A DNA stretch of 64,000 bases from an uncultured delta proteobacterium (GTDB lineage: Bacteria; Myxococcota; UBA727; VGSZ01): NCBI GenBank assembly GCA_963775425.1, contig CAVZJB010000017.1, forward strand, positions 128,001 through 192,000, written 5' to 3'. Of this stretch, positions 1,198 through 6,373 are shown one piece after another; position 1 is the stretch's first letter, and every line of letters starts with the position of its first letter. The notes beneath the pieces were generated by a model, which had not been told where the DNA came from, did no database searches, and saw only the letters and a list, made by a program, of their open reading frames with translations. Both the position numbers and the translations under genes were made by a program.

Positions 1198-2571
1198 GTG
1201 CTGCCGCTCGCCATCCTCACTCTTATCGCAGGCCGCCCCGACGACGCCGCCGGGGACGTCTTCGAGTTCGAGCCCGGCGACGTCGTCGAGACCTTCGACA
1301 GCGGCACCGGCCGCTTCGAGGTGCACTACACGCGCGCGGGCAAAAACGCGGTCCCCGCCGCCGACGCCGACGCCGACGGCGTCCCCGACCACGTGCAGGA
1401 CGTCGCCGCCATATACGACGACGTCCTCGACACCTACCTCGCCATGGGCTTCCGCGCGCCCCTCGACGACGGCGACGGCGTCTTCGACGTCTACCTCGTC
1501 GACACCGACTTCTCCGCCGACGGCCACTTCCAGTCGGAGACCTGCGACGGCGACAACCGCTGCAGCGGCTACATGGTGCAGGAGAACGACTTCGCCGGCT
1601 TCCCGTACCCGAGCGTCGACTACGCCAACCGCCTGCTCGCGAGCCACGAGTTCTTCCACGCCGTGCAGGCCGCGTACGACGCCGACCAGGGTTCGATCAT
1701 CGCGGAGGGCACGGCGGTCTGGGCCAGCGAGCACTACGACAGCGGCCTCGACGACCTCGAGCTGTTCGCCTCCGACTTCCTCGACAACGCCGACCGCGGC
1801 CTCACCGGCGACGGCGGCGGTCCCGTTGATCCGTTCACGTACGGCTCCGCGGTGTTCTGGGAATTCCTGTCGCAGCGCCACGGCGTCGACGTCATCCGTT
1901 CCCTCTGGGAGGCCTGCGACGACGGCAGCGACGCGCACTGGACAGACCGCATCGACGACGTCGTCACCGCCGCCGGCGGCACAGGCTTCGCCGACGACCT
2001 GCAGGCCTTCGCGCTCGCCGCGCTGTCGCTCGGGCCGCGCGCGGATCCCGCCAAGGGCTTCAGCGACGCCGCCGCGCTGCCCGCGCCCGTGCTCCGCAAC
2101 GAGGACGAGCCGTTTTCGCGCGCGAGCTTCGTGCTGTTCCCCGCGTCGTACGTGACGTTCTCCATCCAGGCCTCGGGCCCGGTGCGCGCGGCCATCGCCG
2201 GCGAGACGGGCGACGCGCGGCTCGCCCTCGTGCCGCTCTTCGCCGACGCCGCGGGGGATCCGCTGGGCGACGGCGCCCTCGACGTCACCGACGACACCGG
2301 CGGCCACGTCGCCGTCCAGATCGTGAACGGCTCGTTGACCGACGCCGTGCGCCCGCGCGTGTGCATCGGCGCGCCCGCCGACGTCGACGCCTGCCTGGCA
2401 CAAGACGAGGAGCCCCCGCCGATCGGGGTGAACCCGGTGGCGCCCGAAGGCTGCTCGTGCGGGGCCGCGGCGCAGCCGGAGCTGCCCGCGGCCCTCGCGT
2501 TCCTCTGGTTGTTGTCGTCGGCCGCGCCCCAATCCCGCGCGCGACGCGCTCAGAACCGGTCATCGACGTAG
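1198..2571 (+). CDS. MXAN_6640-like secreted zinc metalloprotease with MYXO-CTERM-like tail
   Basis: HEFFHAVQ zincin motif followed by EGTA; DADADGVPD; C-terminal GCSC, hydrophobic stretch and Arg-rich end. Confidence 0.75.
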   Translation: MLPLAILTLIAGRPDDAAGDVFEFEPGDVVETFDSGTGRFEVHYTRAGKNAVPAADADADGVPDHVQDVAAIYDDVLDTYLAMGFRAPLDDGDGVFDVYLVDTDFSADGHFQSETCDGDNRCSGYMVQENDFAGFPYPSVDYANRLLASHEFFHAVQAAYDADQGSIIAEGTAVWASEHYDSGLDDLELFASDFLDNADRGLTGDGGGPVDPFTYGSAVFWEFLSQRHGVDVIRSLWEACDDGSDAHWTDRIDDVVTAAGGTGFADDLQAFALAALSLGPRADPAKGFSDAAALPAPVLRNEDEPFSRASFVLFPASYVTFSIQASGPVRAAIAGETGDARLALVPLFADAAGDPLGDGALDVTDDTGGHVAVQIVNGSLTDAVRPRVCIGAPADVDACLAQDEEPPPIGVNPVAPEGCSCGAAAQPELPAALAFLWLLSSAAPQSRARRAQNRSST

Positions 2572-3155
2572 ACGCGCTCGGCCTTGGTGCGCTCGCCGAC
2601 GGCGCGCACGTGCTCGGCGGTCTTCTTCATCCACGCGTTGCGGCAGCGGACAGAGCAGTACTTGCCGGCGCCGCGGCGGAGCTGGTGGGTCTGCGCGCGG
2701 AAGGGCTCGTCGCACCAGGCGCACACGCGGAGCATCGACTTGCCAAGCTCCTCGAGGGCGCAGGCGCGGCAACGCCAGATCACCGAGAAGGGGTCGGTGG
2801 CCACGGCGAACTTCGCCTGCATCTCGCGCGTGGGCACGACCTTGCCGCAGGTCGGGCACGCGCCGGGCTTCTCCAGCGCGCCCTTGTCGACGAGGCGGGC
2901 GAGCTGGGCGAAGACGCGGCGGCGCTGCCTCCAGTCCTCGTCGCCCGCGAGGATCTCCTTGCGGCGCCGCGACTGGTCGGCGGACTTGCAGGCCTTGCAC
3001 CAGGCCGAGAGCCCGTCGCGCTTGCGCTTCTCGTGGTTGTAGCTCTCGCGGGTCTTTTCGATGCCGCAGCGGGCACAGCGCTTCACGGCCGCCACGGGGG
3101 CGACGGCGACGCCGTTGTCGGTGCAGATCATCAAAGCGGTGTCGTTGCGGTTCAT
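2550..3155 (-). CDS. Multi-CxxC zinc-finger protein (phage/HNH-associated type)
   Basis: CARC, CKAC, CPTC, CRAC, CAWC and YCSVRC motifs; GGAGGT SD upstream. Confidence 0.7.
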   Translation of the reverse strand: MNRNDTALMICTDNGVAVAPVAAVKRCARCGIEKTRESYNHEKRKRDGLSAWCKACKSADQSRRRKEILAGDEDWRQRRRVFAQLARLVDKGALEKPGACPTCGKVVPTREMQAKFAVATDPFSVIWRCRACALEELGKSMLRVCAWCDEPFRAQTHQLRRGAGKYCSVRCRNAWMKKTAEHVRAVGERTKAERVYVDDRF

Positions 3156-3332
3156 GGTGCACCTCCGGGAGGGGGCGGTGCACCGACGACGAGGAGGTCA
3201 GCGCACCGGTGTTGGTTCGAGTCCTGCTGAACCCATGTGGGCTCCTCCTGTGGAGCCCCGTAGACGGCGCCGGCCCACGTTCGATTCACCGCCCCGGTTC
3301 GGGAGACCGGCTCGGCCCATGAGGTCTCCCGA
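3156..3332 (-). ncRNA. Candidate structured 5' leader RNA
   Basis: Nested inverted repeats 3172-3180/3287-3295, 3239-3245/3252-3258, 3214-3218/3229-3233 and 3299-3308/3323-3332. Confidence 0.4.
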
Positions 3333-3583
3333 CGCTCCGCTGGAGCCGCCGCCGCTGAGCGCAAAGGGCGACGAGCAATGTGATCCATCGGCAAGGCGCG
3401 GGACGGCCCGAACCCGCCACGTGCGCTGATAGCGGGATCACAACACGGCTCGGACCCGCCGTTTCCTCACAACCTGCAGCGGTTCTTGCGCGCCGACGTA
3501 CCTCGATGCGTACGCCGCGCGGCGAGCCACCTTGTGGGCGGCATCGCCGAGTGCCGCTACGAGCCTTGTTTTTCGTCTGCCTT

Positions 3584-4900
3584 TCAGCCGAGGCCGTCGA
3601 GCCACTCCTTGACGACGTCGCCGCGGGGCTCGCCGTCCTCGACGAAGGGCCAGCGCTCCCAGCCCGCCGGCCACGTGACCTTGTCGCGCGTGAAGCGCAG
3701 CGCGTCGCCCGCGGGCCACGGGGCGTCGAGGTCCTCGACGATGAGCTTGAACACGCCGTTGTCGAACGGCTCGCCGATCGCCATGAGCTTCGGCACCACG
3801 CGCTCGCGCTTGCCGCGCTTTTGCATCTCGAGCGCGCGGTGGTGGCAGTAGGGGTTGTTGCCGCGCTTGTCGAAGAAGACATGCGCCGTCCACGAGCAGC
3901 CGCCGCGACACAGCCTGTGGTGGTCGCAGGTCTTGCAGAAGCCCCAGAGGTGCTTTTCGCCCTCCTTGGTGCCCCCGCCCATGTTCATGAGCAGCTCGCG
4001 CGTCTCGAGGATCTCGGCCAGCGGCCGCTCGCGGATGTTGCCGCCCGTGTACGCCTTGGTCGGCAGCGACGGGCACCCCTTGATGGCGCCGTCGGCCTCG
4101 ATGCCGAGCGCGTACAGACCCGCCTGGCAGCCCATCCACATGGCGTTTTCGTCGCCGGGCGCCGAGCGCAGGAGGTTTTCGTAGGGGCCGTAGTAGCCGA
4201 TGTTGTTGCCGCACAGGACGGTGACGCCGTCGGCGTTGGCGCGGCGCACCACGCGCGCGAGCACCGGGTAGACCTCGAGGAGCTCGCACGGCTGCAAGAG
4301 CCACGCGGCGTTGTCGGCGGCGTTGCCCATGGGGACGGTGAGCTGGAGCTGCCACCCCGACGAGCCCGCGTCGCGCACGGCCTCGAGGATGCGGGGCAGC
4401 TCGGGCGCCGACAGCCGGTTGATCTGCGTGTTGGTCCCGAACAGCACGCCCGCGGCGGCCATGTTCTCCATCGACTTGAAGGCCGCGCGAAACGCACCCT
4501 TCTTGCCCCGCTGGAAGTCGTGCGTGTCCTCGAGCCCGTCGATGCTCACCGAGACGCGCACGATGCCCGCGTCTTTCATGCGGCGCGCCGTCTGTTGCGA
4601 GATGCCGTAGCCGCCCGTGGTCATGGTGCAGACCATGCCGCTCGCGTTGATCTCCTTCGCGAGCTCGAGCCAGTCGGGGCGGAGGAACGCCTCGCCGCCG
4701 ATCATCGTCACCTCACCGATGCCGCACGCGGCCATCTGGTGGATCAGGTCCTTGGCCTCGTCGGTGGACAGCTCGTTTTCGCGGGCGTCGCCGGCGCGGG
4801 AGCCGCAGTGGCCGCAGGCGAGGTTGCACGCGAGCGTGATCTCCCAGACGGCGTAGCTCTTGCGCCGGTATCCGACGATCTTTTCGGGGACCTCGGCCAT
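3584..4900 (-). CDS. Radical SAM/SPASM peptide maturase, PlpX-like tyramine-excising splicease (nif11-class rSAM maturase 3 type)
   Basis: YAVWEITLACNLACGHCGSRAG (CxxxCxxC), IGGEAFLRPDW, QLTVPMGNAAD, GNNIGYYGPYE; SPASM CQAG...GCPSLP...CKTC...CRGGC...NNPYCHHRAL; SD GAGGAG. Confidence 0.85.
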   Translation of the reverse strand: MAEVPEKIVGYRRKSYAVWEITLACNLACGHCGSRAGDARENELSTDEAKDLIHQMAACGIGEVTMIGGEAFLRPDWLELAKEINASGMVCTMTTGGYGISQQTARRMKDAGIVRVSVSIDGLEDTHDFQRGKKGAFRAAFKSMENMAAAGVLFGTNTQINRLSAPELPRILEAVRDAGSSGWQLQLTVPMGNAADNAAWLLQPCELLEVYPVLARVVRRANADGVTVLCGNNIGYYGPYENLLRSAPGDENAMWMGCQAGLYALGIEADGAIKGCPSLPTKAYTGGNIRERPLAEILETRELLMNMGGGTKEGEKHLWGFCKTCDHHRLCRGGCSWTAHVFFDKRGNNPYCHHRALEMQKRGKRERVVPKLMAIGEPFDNGVFKLIVEDLDAPWPAGDALRFTRDKVTWPAGWERWPFVEDGEPRGDVVKEWLDGLG

Positions 4901-4946
4901 CAATCTCCTCTCGCGCGCGCGCTCGACCCGGGCGGCGGACGGCCCC

Positions 4947-4974
4947 CGCGCCACGTCGAGCGCGCCACGTCGAG
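4947..4974. repeat. 14-bp tandem direct repeat (CGCGCCACGTCGAG x2)
   Basis: Directly visible in the intergenic gap between the repeat protein and the rSAM gene. Confidence 0.8.
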
Positions 4975-4981
4975 CGCAGGG

Positions 4982-6373
4982 TCAGAAGTCGAGGTGCGCG
5001 TATTGCGTGAGACCGGCGAAGCCGCCGGTGCGCCGGATCCACGCGTTGTCCACCGTGTTCGGGTCCGCGGTGGACGCCGTCGGCGACAGCGCGCCCACCG
5101 GGATGAGCGCGGTGTAGCTGAAGCCGTCGGGGTGGTTTTCGTTCTTGAGCGGGACCTCGACCATGCGCGCGCCGAGCGGGAACCCGGCCTGCCAGGTGAG
5201 CTTGCCTGCGCCTTCGGCCGTCTCGAGCGCGCCGACGATGTGCTCGCGGCGGGCCTCGGTGACCTTCAGGCCGTCGCCGCCGGCCTTGTTCAAGAAGGCC
5301 TGGAGCCTGGTCTTGGCGTCGGCGTCGAAGCGCTCCGGGATCTCGTCGAGCAGGCGGTTGAGGTCCGCGCGCTCGGTCTTGCTCAGACCGCCGTTTTGCA
5401 TCGCCGCCTTGGTGAGGCTGTCCACCTCGGCCGCCGTGATGTGGCAATCGTTGAGGATGTCCTTGGCCGCGTCCTTGAGGTTCTTGCTCTTCAGATCGGG
5501 CAGCGGGATGGGCATCACCAGGCCGTACAGCGGCCGGATCACGGGCTCGCGCCCGATGGCCTGTCCGAGGCGGTGATGCGCCGCGGGCTCCATGAACGAC
5601 GAGAGCTGGTCGTAGACCTTCTCGAGGTCGGCGCGCTCGGTGCGGCTGAGGCCGCCGTTGTCGTTGGCGAGGTCGATGAGCTTGTTGACCTCGTCGAGCG
5701 TGATGCGGCGGTCGCCGATCATGGGCGCGAGGGCCTGCTTGAGGTCCTTGTTGCGCATGCCGTCCGGGATGGGCACCGGGAACACGAGCCCGTACAGCGG
5801 GCGGATCACGGGGTCGGGCATCGGCTTTTGGTCCTTCACGAAGGACTGCAGCGTACGCAGCGCGTCGGCGTCGAAGAACTGGCCGCAGTCGTCCATGAGC
5901 TTGTTGAGGTCGCGCTTCTCGGTCTTGGAGATGACGCCGTTTTCCTTGGCGATGCCGATGAGCGTGCTCACCTCGGCGAGGGTGATGCGGCGATCGCCGA
6001 GCATGCCCTTCACGGCCGCCTCGAGGTGCTTGCCCTTGAGGCCCGGGTCGAGCGGCAGCGGCACGGGCAGGCCGTACATCGGCCGGACGATCATGCGGTC
6101 GCCGAGGCCGCCGGCGCGCAGGCCCGCGACCTGCTGCGACGCGCGCGCGGCGCGCTTGAAGTCCTCGGTGCTCGCCCACCCGGAGCGCGGGAGCTGCGCC
6201 GCGGGCTTCTCGGCCTTGCCCTTGGTGGTCCCGCCGAAGCGGTCGGCCTTGGCCTTTTGGCCCTTCGACGCCTTGGGGGCGCTCTTTTGCGCCGTCTTGG
6301 CGGCGGTCTTGCTCTTGGCGACGCTGCCGGTGGCGCGGCCGCCGACCTTCTTGCTGGTGCTCTTGACCTTCAT
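4982..6373 (-). CDS. 463-aa triple-repeat protein with RP(M/L)YG motifs; putative splicease substrate
   Basis: ATG at 6373 with GGAGGGG SD; Lys/Ala-rich N-terminus; three repeats (IVRPMYGL, VIRPLYGL, VIRPLYGL), each followed by a D-x-x-IT-x-x-EV...NG-x-(I/L)S-x-TE-x-x-DL helical unit; C-terminal RTGGFAG domain. Confidence 0.8.
   Translation of the reverse strand: MKVKSTSKKVGGRATGSVAKSKTAAKTAQKSAPKASKGQKAKADRFGGTTKGKAEKPAAQLPRSGWASTEDFKRAARASQQVAGLRAGGLGDRMIVRPMYGLPVPLPLDPGLKGKHLEAAVKGMLGDRRITLAEVSTLIGIAKENGVISKTEKRDLNKLMDDCGQFFDADALRTLQSFVKDQKPMPDPVIRPLYGLVFPVPIPDGMRNKDLKQALAPMIGDRRITLDEVNKLIDLANDNGGLSRTERADLEKVYDQLSSFMEPAAHHRLGQAIGREPVIRPLYGLVMPIPLPDLKSKNLKDAAKDILNDCHITAAEVDSLTKAAMQNGGLSKTERADLNRLLDEIPERFDADAKTRLQAFLNKAGGDGLKVTEARREHIVGALETAEGAGKLTWQAGFPLGARMVEVPLKNENHPDGFSYTALIPVGALSPTASTADPNTVDNAWIRRTGGFAGLTQYAHLDF

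What the first reader, a model, noticed from the sequence alone, without database searches (positions are those of the whole stretch)
3584..6373. Splicease-type radical SAM enzyme paired with a 463-aa protein carrying three RP(M/L)YG sites: candidate multivalent ketoamide protein system
Seen: two co-oriented genes 81 bp apart. The upstream protein has three ~90-aa repeats starting IVRPMYGL, VIRPLYGL and VIRPLYGL (XYG codons at 6071-6079, 5789-5797, 5522-5530). Each motif sits in a Pro-rich extended segment ahead of a conserved helical unit. The downstream enzyme carries the signature motifs of the PlpX/nif11-class-3 rSAM-SPASM family. Known: PlpX-type spliceases excise tyramine at XYG sites (often MYG or LYG) to give alpha-keto-beta-amino acids, and ketoamides are protease-inhibiting warheads. 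The classical substrates are short Nif11-leader peptides used with a PlpY/RRE helper. Inference: here the substrate is a large folded protein with no Nif11 leader, and no RRE, protease or dedicated exporter is adjacent. It may be spliced up to three times and act intact as a trivalent protease inhibitor or effector.
Basis: partly seen in the sequence, partly recalled or inferred. Interest (0 to 1): 0.92.

Follow-up and report, generated by a model that had tools for sequence, protein, structure and literature searches.

The report
Protein-sized splicease substrate with built-in activator
A radical SAM "splicease" gene sits next to a 463-residue protein that carries three copies of the enzyme's known recognition tag plus a built-in copy of the helper element that cyanobacteria encode as a separate small protein, so this is most likely a natural protein, not a short peptide, that receives three reactive ketoamide groups in its backbone.

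Summary
The enzyme is a full-length, near-cut-off match to NCBIfam TIGR04103, the nif11-class rSAM maturase 3 model. It is 65-69% identical to cyanobacterial enzymes that sit between Nif11-leader precursors with [QR]P[LM]YG sites and a small downstream ORF.

All three sites in the 463-aa protein fit P-x-I-R-P-[LM]-Y-G-L-P-x-P. That is almost the published PlpXY splice tag. It holds for 53 of 53 YG dipeptides in 14 family proteins.

The helper is not missing. Residues about 55-85 (LPRSGW plus a helix) match the small cyanobacterial ORF, presumably the Y protein. They were the only confidently predicted contact with the enzyme (ipSAE 0.66, best control 0.00).

The enzyme lies directly downstream of the substrate in all 3 loci with readable context. 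The cassette is rare: 2 of 38 genomes of the order.

The helical units between sites are an uncharacterised domain. Elsewhere it heads proteins with transglutaminase, calpain or peptidoglycan-binding domains.

I read this as a new variant of the known spliceotide kind. The chemistry and the inhibitor or effector role are untested. The 2022 survey of 939 predicted systems was not readable, so it may already list this type.

The parts
4982..6373 (-). Substrate gene (463 aa, stop included): candidate protein-sized spliceotide precursor
   Evidence: Translation. SD GGAGG before the ATG at 6373. No Pfam or NCBIfam family. Only 11 homologues of similar length among 5.8 billion proteins.
6224..6373 (-). 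Lys/Ala-rich N-terminal tail, residues 1-50, with no hydrophobic signal-peptide-like stretch
   Evidence: 14 K and 10 A in the first 55 residues. Sequence.
6119..6211 (-). Y-like activator element, residues about 55-85. The LPRSGW hexapeptide is at 6176-6193.
   Evidence: Invariant P57 A58 L61 P62 R63 S64 F72. Profile of 51 small cyanobacterial ORFs aligns to family columns 57-84, E 1.6e-4, probability 50%. Only confident predicted interface is residues 58-85. Only LPR[ST][AG][WF] hit in the six-frame translation of the whole window.
6053..6094 (-). Splice site 1, residues 94-107, MYG at 99-101. Predicted product: alpha-keto-beta-methionine.
   Evidence: Matches the published PlpA2-derived tag quoted in PMC10533398.
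5816..6052 (-). Helical unit 1
   Evidence: Alignment A3. Domain family of 261 representatives.
5771..5812 (-). Splice site 2, residues 188-201, LYG at 193-195. Predicted product: alpha-keto-beta-leucine.
5546..5770 (-). Helical unit 2
5504..5545 (-). Splice site 3, residues 277-290, LYG at 282-284. Predicted product: alpha-keto-beta-leucine.
5279..5503 (-). Helical unit 3
4985..5263 (-). C-terminal domain, residues about 371-463, shared with other proteins of the phylum
   Evidence: Paralogues in the own genome at C11 and C2. Many matches to model positions 367-453 in the phylum. Partner proteins listed.
4901..4981 (-). 81-nt spacer with a tandem 14-nt direct repeat (4947-4974) and the SD GAGGAG of the rSAM gene
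3584..4900 (-). rSAM-SPASM splicease-type enzyme (438 aa, stop included)
   Evidence: TIGR04103 at 685.4 bits over 1-406/412, cut-off 725; next family 393 bits. Pfam Radical_SAM and SPASM. 65-69% identity to 80 mostly cyanobacterial loci.
4805..4828 (-). CxxxCxxC radical SAM cluster motif (C25, C29, C32)
   Evidence: Invariant in 23 aligned enzymes.
3845..4129 (-). SPASM region with seven invariant cysteines (C258, C276, C322, C325, C331, C335, C352)
   Evidence: Pfam SPASM at residues 258-326.

Best explanation
This is a two-gene spliceotide cassette. The 438-aa rSAM-SPASM enzyme is a close sister of the cyanobacterial Nif11-associated spliceases. The 463-aa protein is its substrate.

Inferred mechanism:
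1. The enzyme docks on the substrate's own N-terminal LPRSGW-plus-helix element, residues about 58-85. This element plays in cis the activating role that the separate small Y protein plays in cyanobacteria.
2. The enzyme then excises a tyramine equivalent at Y100, Y194 and Y283. Each tyrosine lies in a Pro-rich tag P-x-I-R-P-(M/L)-Y-G-L-P-x-P.
3. This leaves one alpha-keto-beta-methionine and two alpha-keto-beta-leucine residues in the backbone.
4. Each ketoamide sits just ahead of a conserved ~75-residue helical unit. I therefore think the product stays a protein with three electrophilic warheads rather than being cut into small peptides.
5. Its most likely role is reversible covalent inhibition of serine or cysteine hydrolases.

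Shown here: gene pairing, motif conservation, likeness to the validated tag, likeness of the N-terminal element to the small cyanobacterial ORF, and a predicted interface.

Inferred only: the chemistry, the number of sites used, the fate of the protein and its target.
For: ENZYME
- TIGR04103 at 685.4 bits, full length; the next family scores 393 bits.
- The CxxxCxxC motif and seven SPASM cysteines are invariant.
- 302 relatives were found in genome contigs. The best 80 are 65-69% identical and almost all cyanobacterial.
- In those 80 loci, 59 have a same-strand ORF upstream of the enzyme that passes a YG filter (at least 2 YG and more than 1.2 YG per 100 aa). Seven of the others were printed: five hold a Nif11-type precursor upstream that fell below the filter, one (L036) is the G034 cassette, and in L039 the contig ends upstream of the enzyme. 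The printed cyanobacterial ones are Nif11-type leaders ending in GG, followed by cores with [QR]P[LM]YG[VI][VI].
- Public sources name these relatives 'nif11-class peptide radical SAM maturase 3'.

SITES
- R-P-x-Y-G is invariant at each repeat in 11 homologues.
- 53 of 53 YG dipeptides in 14 family proteins sit in the motif.
- Passages of PMC10533398 give the PlpA2-derived tag as GGPIRPGYGLPI with an engineered G. They state that PlpXY natively acts on MYG and LYG. Site 1 here reads IVRPMYGLPV.

CIS HELPER
- LPR[ST][AG]W occurs in 57 of 80 loci.
- In 55 it lies in a 48-125-residue ORF right after the enzyme (most of them 49-85). In 2 (L036 = G034, and L083) it lies in the N-terminal part of a multi-PMYG protein.
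- hhalign of the small-ORF profile against the substrate family hits columns 57-84, E 1.6e-4.
- Among 150 helical-unit proteins, the 6 with this motif are all ones with P.YG sites.
- There is no separate small ORF with the motif anywhere in the window.
- Predicted complex, enzyme plus substrate residues 45-190: ipSAE 0.66 (runs 0.64-0.68), best of 3 controls 0.00. That mark was reached by 58 of 80 solved complexes and 2 of 110 mismatched pairs. Runs agree in at least 58% of contacts, and partner pLDDT is at least 62. The confident interface on the substrate is residues 58-85 only.
- PMC11414181 (whole text, parts 1-2 read) shows that engineered PlpY-PlpA3 fusions are spliced without separate Y. 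It also shows that a leader helix replaces Y in binary systems.

PAIRING
- The enzyme lies directly downstream of a substrate homologue in all 3 loci with readable context: the window, G034 and metagenome contig L124.
- A fourth hint: substrate homologue P0012 and enzyme homologue P0165 share source and longest-contig length, 5324.

ROLE
- Passages of PMC11626197 report that two spliceotides inhibit elastase, chymotrypsin and cathepsin B, and that the unspliced peptides do not.
Against: - The TIGR04103 score (685.4) is below NCBI's equivalog cut-off of 725.
- No experimentally validated splicease could be put in the tree. The window enzyme falls outside the cyanobacterial group with weak resolution (SH-aLRT 74; the three cis-helper enzymes are unresolved).
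- The profile match to the small ORF covers only 28 columns, at 50% probability. I infer, and did not show, that the small cyanobacterial ORF is the Y protein. It matches no NCBIfam model.
- The predicted complex did not place any YG site confidently in the active site. It used my own shallow alignments (23 and 11 rows).
- Context is readable for only 3 loci.
- The own genome has no other protein with the helical unit. Any role inferred from other genomes' unit-bearing proteins is by analogy.
- Nothing here bears on whether the protein is cleaved after modification.
Confidence: 0.72

Rival explanations
1. This is a multi-core RiPP precursor. After splicing, trans-encoded proteases cut the protein into three or more small ketoamide peptides. 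The helical units serve only as spacers or per-core recognition sequences.
For: The closest enzymes act on leader-plus-core peptides with 2-4 sites. Related proteins P0015, P0016 and P0019, and L083, carry extra tandem sites without helical units. An invariant F-x-G at residues 46-48 could be a double-glycine-like cleavage site.
Against: The units are a conserved domain family in their own right: 261 representatives, mostly without any YG site. A conserved C-terminal domain shared with other proteins follows them. No protease or peptidase-exporter is conserved next to the pair in the window or in G034.
Confidence: 0.17
2. The ketoamides serve covalent cross-linking or anchoring rather than inhibition. 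The electrophilic keto groups would form imines or hemiketals with lysines, for instance those of the Lys-rich tail, or with matrix or cell-wall components.
For: There are 14 lysines in the first 55 residues. The helical unit heads transglutaminase-type proteins in 8 of 36 scanned proteins and peptidoglycan-binding proteins in 2 of 36. The C-terminal domain co-occurs with long acidic Gly-rich repeats typical of matrix-like proteins.
Against: No precedent for this was found in the papers read. Passages of PMC11626197 and PMC9811515 describe spliceotides only as protease inhibitors. The own genome shows no TGL or TGase_elicitor match. The TGase_elicitor search rang in no control genome either, so that blank is weak.
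Confidence: 0.06
3. The rSAM does other chemistry on the tyrosines, such as a cross-link or hydroxylation, or it acts on another substrate. Its adjacency to the YG protein would then not mean splicing.
For: The score is below the equivalog cut-off. The enzyme lies outside the cyanobacterial clade. A second TIGR04103-like clade in the same genomes has no YG-rich neighbour.
Against: The enzyme is 65-69% identical over about 410 residues to enzymes in A-X-Y type loci. The site is near-identical to a validated splice tag. Pairing is conserved. The predicted docking is specific against controls.
Confidence: 0.05

Closest known systems
Type I cyanobacterial spliceotide systems (PlpA/X/Y and PcpA/X/Y of Pleurocapsa), as described in PMC11414181 and PMC10533398
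   Same: Both have an rSAM-SPASM enzyme of the TIGR04103 type, 65-69% identical to cyanobacterial loci of the same layout. The sites are MYG and LYG in a Pro-rich core. The tag is nearly the same as the PlpA2-derived splice tag. The same LPRS(A/G)W-plus-helix element is present.
   Different: Here there is no Nif11 leader and no separate Y gene. The helper element is part of the substrate. The substrate is 463 aa, with three tags interleaved with folded helical units and a C-terminal domain. The host is a high-GC genome of a different phylum, consistent with Myxococcota.
Binary (type II) spliceotide systems such as RhaX/RhaA and RasX/RasA of Rheinheimera (PMC11414181, PMC11626197)
   Same: Both are two-gene systems without a Y gene. 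A helix in the precursor's N-terminal part is proposed to occupy the Y site on the enzyme. LYG or MYG is spliced.
   Different: Those precursors are short leader-core peptides with one or two sites. I could not fetch their sequences, so likeness of the helices was not tested here.
Engineered Y-precursor fusions and splice-tagged proteins (PlpYA3-33/-45; tags placed in SUMO, MBP, DHFR, mCherry, FtsZ) in PMC11414181 and PMC10533398
   Same: Y fused in front of the substrate suffices for splicing. Splice tags are accepted at internal positions of folded proteins.
   Different: Those are laboratory constructs. The window encodes what looks like the natural counterpart, with three tags.

Membership tests
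Splicease enzymes (NCBIfam TIGR04103, nif11-class peptide radical SAM maturase 3) | Score at or above the curated equivalog cut-off (725 bits) | tested here: not met
   685.4 bits over model positions 1-406 of 412. The next best family, TIGR03913, scores 393 bits. The enzyme is a very close relative just under the naming cut-off.
Splicease enzymes (NCBIfam TIGR04103, nif11-class peptide radical SAM maturase 3) | Radical SAM CxxxCxxC motif plus a SPASM domain with seven cysteines | tested here: met
   C25/C29/C32 and C258, C276, C322, C325, C331, C335, C352 are invariant in 23 aligned enzymes. Pfam Radical_SAM and SPASM both match.
Splicease enzymes (NCBIfam TIGR04103, nif11-class peptide radical SAM maturase 3) | Groups with experimentally validated spliceases in a tree | tested here: inconclusive
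   No validated enzyme sequence was available. In a tree of 80 rows the window enzyme lies next to, but outside, 76 cyanobacterial rows from A-X-Y type loci, with weak support.
Spliceotide system (enzyme plus precursor) | Adjacent co-oriented precursor with conserved XYG sites | tested here: met
   Three sites here; 53 of 53 YG dipeptides in 14 family proteins are in the motif. The enzyme is directly downstream in 3 of 3 loci with context.
Spliceotide system (enzyme plus precursor) | Site resembles an experimentally accepted splice tag | tested here: met
   The published tag is GGPIRPGYGLPI (engineered G at X; native sites MYG and LYG). Site 1 here is IVRPMYGLPV, and the family consensus is P-x-I-R-P-[LM]-Y-G-L-P.
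Spliceotide system (enzyme plus precursor) | Y protein, or a Y-like helix in the precursor, that binds the enzyme | tested here: met
   The element is present in cis. The predicted interface is confined to residues 58-85: ipSAE 0.66, best control 0.00. Binding itself is predicted, not measured.
Spliceotide system (enzyme plus precursor) | [quoted passage not shown] | not testable with these tools
   This needs co-expression and mass spectrometry.
Nif11-leader (type I) precursors | N-terminal Nif11 domain ending in a double-glycine cleavage site | tested here: not met
   The substrate has no Pfam match to a Nif11 family. The cyanobacterial neighbours printed do have such leaders.
Classical RiPP cluster (leader, core, protease, exporter) | Dedicated protease or peptidase-exporter in the cluster | tested here: not met
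   The neighbours are an HmuY-like protein, an MXAN_6640 HExxH protein, a Cys-rich 201-aa protein, an MlaD-like protein, an ABC-2-type membrane protein, an SspB-like protein and an M50B peptidase. None recurs next to the G034 cassette.

The most novel reading that the evidence does not exclude
The 463-aa protein is a natural, functional, folded protein with three backbone ketoamides. Its helical units are an effector-type targeting module of this phylum. The same unit sits at the extreme N-terminus of signal-less transglutaminase-like, calpain-like and peptidoglycan-binding proteins. On this reading the spliced protein is delivered or docked by the same route and acts there as a multivalent covalent inhibitor of thiol or serine hydrolases. 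That would make it a protein-level, rather than peptide-level, use of ribosomal beta-amino acids.
Probability: 0.22. Interest if true: 0.8.

Novelty: new variant of a known kind. Interest (0 to 1): 0.58.

Why it matters
Spliceotides are known mainly as short leader-core peptides, and no final natural product from a native host had been described as of the 2022 review read here (passages of PMC9811515). This cassette offers three things:
- a natural counterpart of the engineered Y-substrate fusion, which would support the activator-helix model;
- a compact two-gene system that installs three beta-amino acid ketoamides in a protein that also holds folded domains, which is useful for protein engineering;
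- a testable lead on what such warheads do in a protein, since the intervening domain is shared with thiol transglutaminase and protease families.

If the survey of 939 predicted systems already lists this architecture, what remains new is the cis-helper reading and the domain context.

Tried and rejected
STRUCTURE AND LOOK-ALIKE TOOLS
The fold of the helical unit and of the C-terminal domain therefore stays unknown.
- A profile search of the helical unit against PDB sequences gave nothing convincing; the best hit had E 0.005 in a coiled-coil protein.
- A Pfam scan of the nine unit sequences gave only scattered weak hits, with no family matched by more than 2 of 9.
- The ESM Atlas did not hold the window protein. 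It gave no usable hit for homologue P0006.
- NCBIfam has no model for the small cyanobacterial ORFs or for the substrate's N-terminal element.

EXPRESSION
- No RNA holder was listed for the locus. One DNA run held a small share of the words. I did not lay reads.

FURTHER HOMOLOGUE SEARCHES
- A metagenome scan with the substrate alignment gave only one locus.
- A search for shorter relatives of residues 45-135 gave one fragment.

THE OWN-GENOME TARGET IDEA
- I considered that the helical units target own-genome enzymes carrying the same unit. I dropped this because the own genome has the unit only in this protein.
- It does have three calpain-like loci, but none carries the unit.

THE SECOND rSAM
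- I checked whether the second TIGR04103-like rSAM of the genome (contig C7) has a YG-rich partner. It has none, nor do seven relatives of that clade.

LITERATURE
- The key survey (Chem 2022, 'Widespread microbial utilization of ribosomal beta-amino acid-containing peptides and proteins') is not held. I know it only through passages in papers that cite it. Its supplements, and those of the other papers, were not seen.
- A search for splicease or spliceotide together with myxobacteria or Myxococcota found no paper linking them in the held library.
Full report
WHAT IS THERE

Two co-oriented genes lie on the minus strand.
- The upstream gene, 4982-6373, encodes 463 residues. It starts at an ATG preceded by GGAGG.
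- The downstream gene, 3584-4900, encodes 438 residues. It starts at an ATG preceded by GAGGAG.
- The spacer is 81 nt and holds a tandem 14-nt repeat at 4947-4974.
Y100, Y194 and Y283 sit in IVRPMYGL, VIRPLYGL and VIRPLYGL.
- The segments after the sites are true repeats, 39% and 47% identical to the first.

THE ENZYME

It has the Radical_SAM and SPASM Pfam domains. It matches NCBIfam TIGR04103, 'nif11-class peptide radical SAM maturase 3', over 406 of 412 model positions at 685.4 bits. That is just under the curated cut-off of 725 and far above the next family at 393 bits. The CxxxCxxC motif and seven SPASM cysteines are invariant in an alignment of 23 relatives.

A scan of one genome per prokaryote species found 302 relatives. 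The best 80 are 65-69% identical and almost all from Cyanobacteria. In 59 of those 80 loci a same-strand ORF upstream of the enzyme passed my YG filter, at least 2 YG and more than 1.2 YG per 100 residues. I printed seven of the 21 that did not pass. Five hold a Nif11-type precursor upstream that fell below the filter. One, L036, is the G034 cassette. In L039 the contig ends upstream of the enzyme. The printed cyanobacterial precursors are Nif11-type leaders ending in GG, followed by Pro-rich cores with [QR]P[LM]YG[VI][VI].

This is the layout that PMC11414181 (parts 1-2 read) and PMC10533398 (passages) describe for the type I cyanobacterial spliceotide systems. There the X enzyme excises tyramine at XYG, natively MYG and LYG. 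Public sources name the relatives by the TIGR04103 name.

In a quick maximum-likelihood tree of 80 enzymes, three rows lie outside the 76 cyanobacterial rows: the window enzyme, its G034 counterpart and one from a Vulcanimicrobiota genome. Resolution is weak (SH-aLRT 74 for the cyanobacterial side; 7 for the three together). No experimentally validated splicease sequence was available to me, so placement rests on context, not on a tree with validated members.

THE SUBSTRATE

It matches no Pfam or NCBIfam family. It has only 11 homologues of similar length among 5.8 billion proteins. In their alignment R, P, Y and G of each site are invariant or nearly so. One subgroup has a fourth site in place of the C-terminal domain. 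Three more distant relatives came from the representative search. Across all 14 proteins, all 53 YG dipeptides lie in P-x-I-R-P-[LM]-Y-G-[LVMI]-P-x-P-x-P.

PMC10533398 quotes the PlpA2-derived minimal splice tag, with an engineered G at the X position, as GGPIRPGYGLPI. The sites here are that tag with the native M or L. This is the strongest single argument that they are real splicease sites.

THE HELPER IS NOT MISSING

In 55 of the 80 loci a small ORF of 48-125 residues (most of them 49-85) directly follows the enzyme. It carries LPR[ST][AG]W followed by an amphipathic basic helix. By position and size I take it to be the Y protein. That is an inference, and it matches no NCBIfam model.

The same hexapeptide and a following helix are invariant at residues 57-80 of the window protein's family. 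They also occur in the N-terminal parts of the multi-PMYG proteins next to the G034 and Vulcanimicrobiota enzymes.

- A profile of 51 distinct small ORFs aligns best to columns 57-84 of the family (E 1.6e-4, probability 50%, 28 columns).
- Among 150 proteins that carry the helical unit, the 6 with this hexapeptide are all among the few with P.YG sites.
- It is the only such hexapeptide in the six-frame translation of the whole 64-kb window. No separate small ORF follows the enzyme.

I then asked a complex predictor to place substrate residues 45-190 on the enzyme.
- The score was 0.66 (runs 0.64, 0.66, 0.68), against 0.00 for the best of three controls.
- That mark was reached by 58 of 80 solved complexes and 2 of 110 mismatched pairs in the tool's calibration.
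- The runs agree in at least 58% of contacts, and partner pLDDT is at least 62.
- My own alignments were used, so the counts hold only roughly.
- The confident interface on the substrate is residues 58-85 and nothing else. On the enzyme it lies mainly in the SPASM half.
- The YG site itself was not confidently placed.

This fits the model of PMC11414181. There Y acts as an activating helix, a leader helix replaces it in binary systems, and engineered PlpY-PlpA3 fusions are spliced without separate Y. The same paper says the non-cyanobacterial pathways all lack a Y gene.

PAIRING AND DISTRIBUTION

The enzyme lies directly downstream of a substrate homologue in all 3 loci whose context I could read:
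- the window;
- genome G034 of the same order but another family, which has a 451-aa protein with five PMYG sites, helical units and the hexapeptide;
- a 1.8-kb metagenome contig, where the enzyme's first 46 residues run off the end.

One further substrate homologue and one enzyme homologue share source and contig length.

The cassette is sporadic. No full-length substrate homologue turned up in the other 400 genomes sampled from the phylum, apart from G034's two-repeat match. Only 2 of 38 genomes of the order have the 66%-or-better enzyme. Flanking genes differ between the window and G034, so the conserved unit is the gene pair.

The phylum is consistent with Myxococcota. A neighbour matches the MXAN_6640 HExxH family. 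I did not test this further.

THE OTHER DOMAINS

The ~75-residue helical unit is a domain family of its own. It has 261 cluster representatives at E up to 0.001 among 1.84 billion. Most lack any YG site, and most carry the unit at the extreme N-terminus.

Of 36 longer unit-bearing proteins scanned against Pfam:

| Pfam result | Proteins |
|---|---|
| TGase_elicitor | 6 |
| TGL transglutaminase | 2 |
| Calpain-type protease | 1 |
| PG_binding_1 (one also with LysM) | 2 |
| EF-hands | 1 |
| DeoC | 1 |
| Weak Big_6 | 1 |
| Nothing | 22 |

The printed examples start with the unit right after the first methionine, without a signal peptide. The own genome has the unit only in this protein.

The C-terminal domain recurs in other proteins of the phylum, often with long acidic Gly-rich repeats. 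Neither domain has a known function. I could not fold them.

READING

The modification step is well supported by context and analogy, though unproven chemically. The fate and role of the product are open.
- I favour an intact three-warhead protein, because the units and the C-terminal domain are conserved domains rather than spacers. Characterised spliceotides inhibit serine and cysteine proteases only when spliced (passages of PMC11626197).
- Processing into peptides stays a live rival.
- A cross-linking role stays a minor one.

NOVELTY

Spliceotides, binary systems with leader helices and splice tags in proteins are all in print. According to a passage of PMC10533398, a 2022 survey that I could not read lists 27 characterised and 939 predicted systems. 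Its title speaks of peptides and proteins.

This architecture may therefore already be catalogued. What I can add is the cis-helper reading with its predicted interface, the tag identity, and the domain context of the intervening units. I rate it a new variant of a known kind, of moderate to good interest.

Noticed in passing
G000 contig C7:104567-105700 (locus L002 1456-2697); also L127-L133 and L135: A second clade of TIGR04103-like rSAM-SPASM enzymes scores 439 bits and is 44-50% identical to the window enzyme. It occurs in 9 of the 38 genomes of the order, counting the own genome and G034, each of which also has the first type. None of the loci read has a YG-rich neighbour or the LPRS(A/G)W motif. 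Its substrate is unknown.
   Followed up: partly
L083 (Vulcanimicrobiota genome record), ORF 2832-4013: A protein of about 254 residues lies directly upstream of a 66%-identical enzyme. It has the LPRSGW-plus-helix element, eight PMYG sites in Pro-rich repeats and no helical units. It is a simpler cis-helper, multi-site precursor in another phylum.
   Followed up: partly
window 5279-6052 (three copies); L007, L008, L009, L016, L027, L028, L033, L034; P0014-P0161: An uncharacterised ~75-residue helical domain with 261 cluster representatives. It usually sits at the extreme N-terminus of signal-less proteins. Their other domains include TGase_elicitor, TGL, calpain, and PG_binding_1 with LysM. 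It could be a targeting, docking or pro-domain module.
   Followed up: partly
window 4985-5263; G000 C11:106083-106355 and C2:122926-123225; L010-L032: A ~90-residue C-terminal domain is widespread in the phylum. In many proteins it is followed or preceded by long repeats of an acidic, glycine-rich unit. It matches no Pfam or NCBIfam family.
   Followed up: partly
window 4947-4974: A perfect tandem duplication of a 14-nt unit lies in the 81-nt spacer between the substrate and enzyme genes, just upstream of the enzyme's Shine-Dalgarno sequence. It may be regulatory.
   Followed up: no
window 1198-2571 (+): A 457-aa protein of the MXAN_6640 HExxH putative metalloprotease family (211.5 bits). Its C-terminal end looks like a Cys-containing sorting tail. 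It follows an HmuY-like lipoprotein gene at 376-1194.
   Followed up: partly
G034 C16:115847-116980 and C16:118176-118451: In G034 a second-clade rSAM and an ORF that carries the helical unit lie convergently, about 1.2 kb apart. I did not examine whether this recurs elsewhere.
   Followed up: no
L038, L041, L051, L053, L076, L078, L080, L084-L086, L088, L092, L094, L096, L099, L101, L104, L105, L110, L112, L114 and others: 23 of the 80 enzyme loci lack the exact LPR[ST][AG]W hexapeptide. Some are cut by contig ends. The rest may have divergent helper ORFs or none.
   Followed up: no
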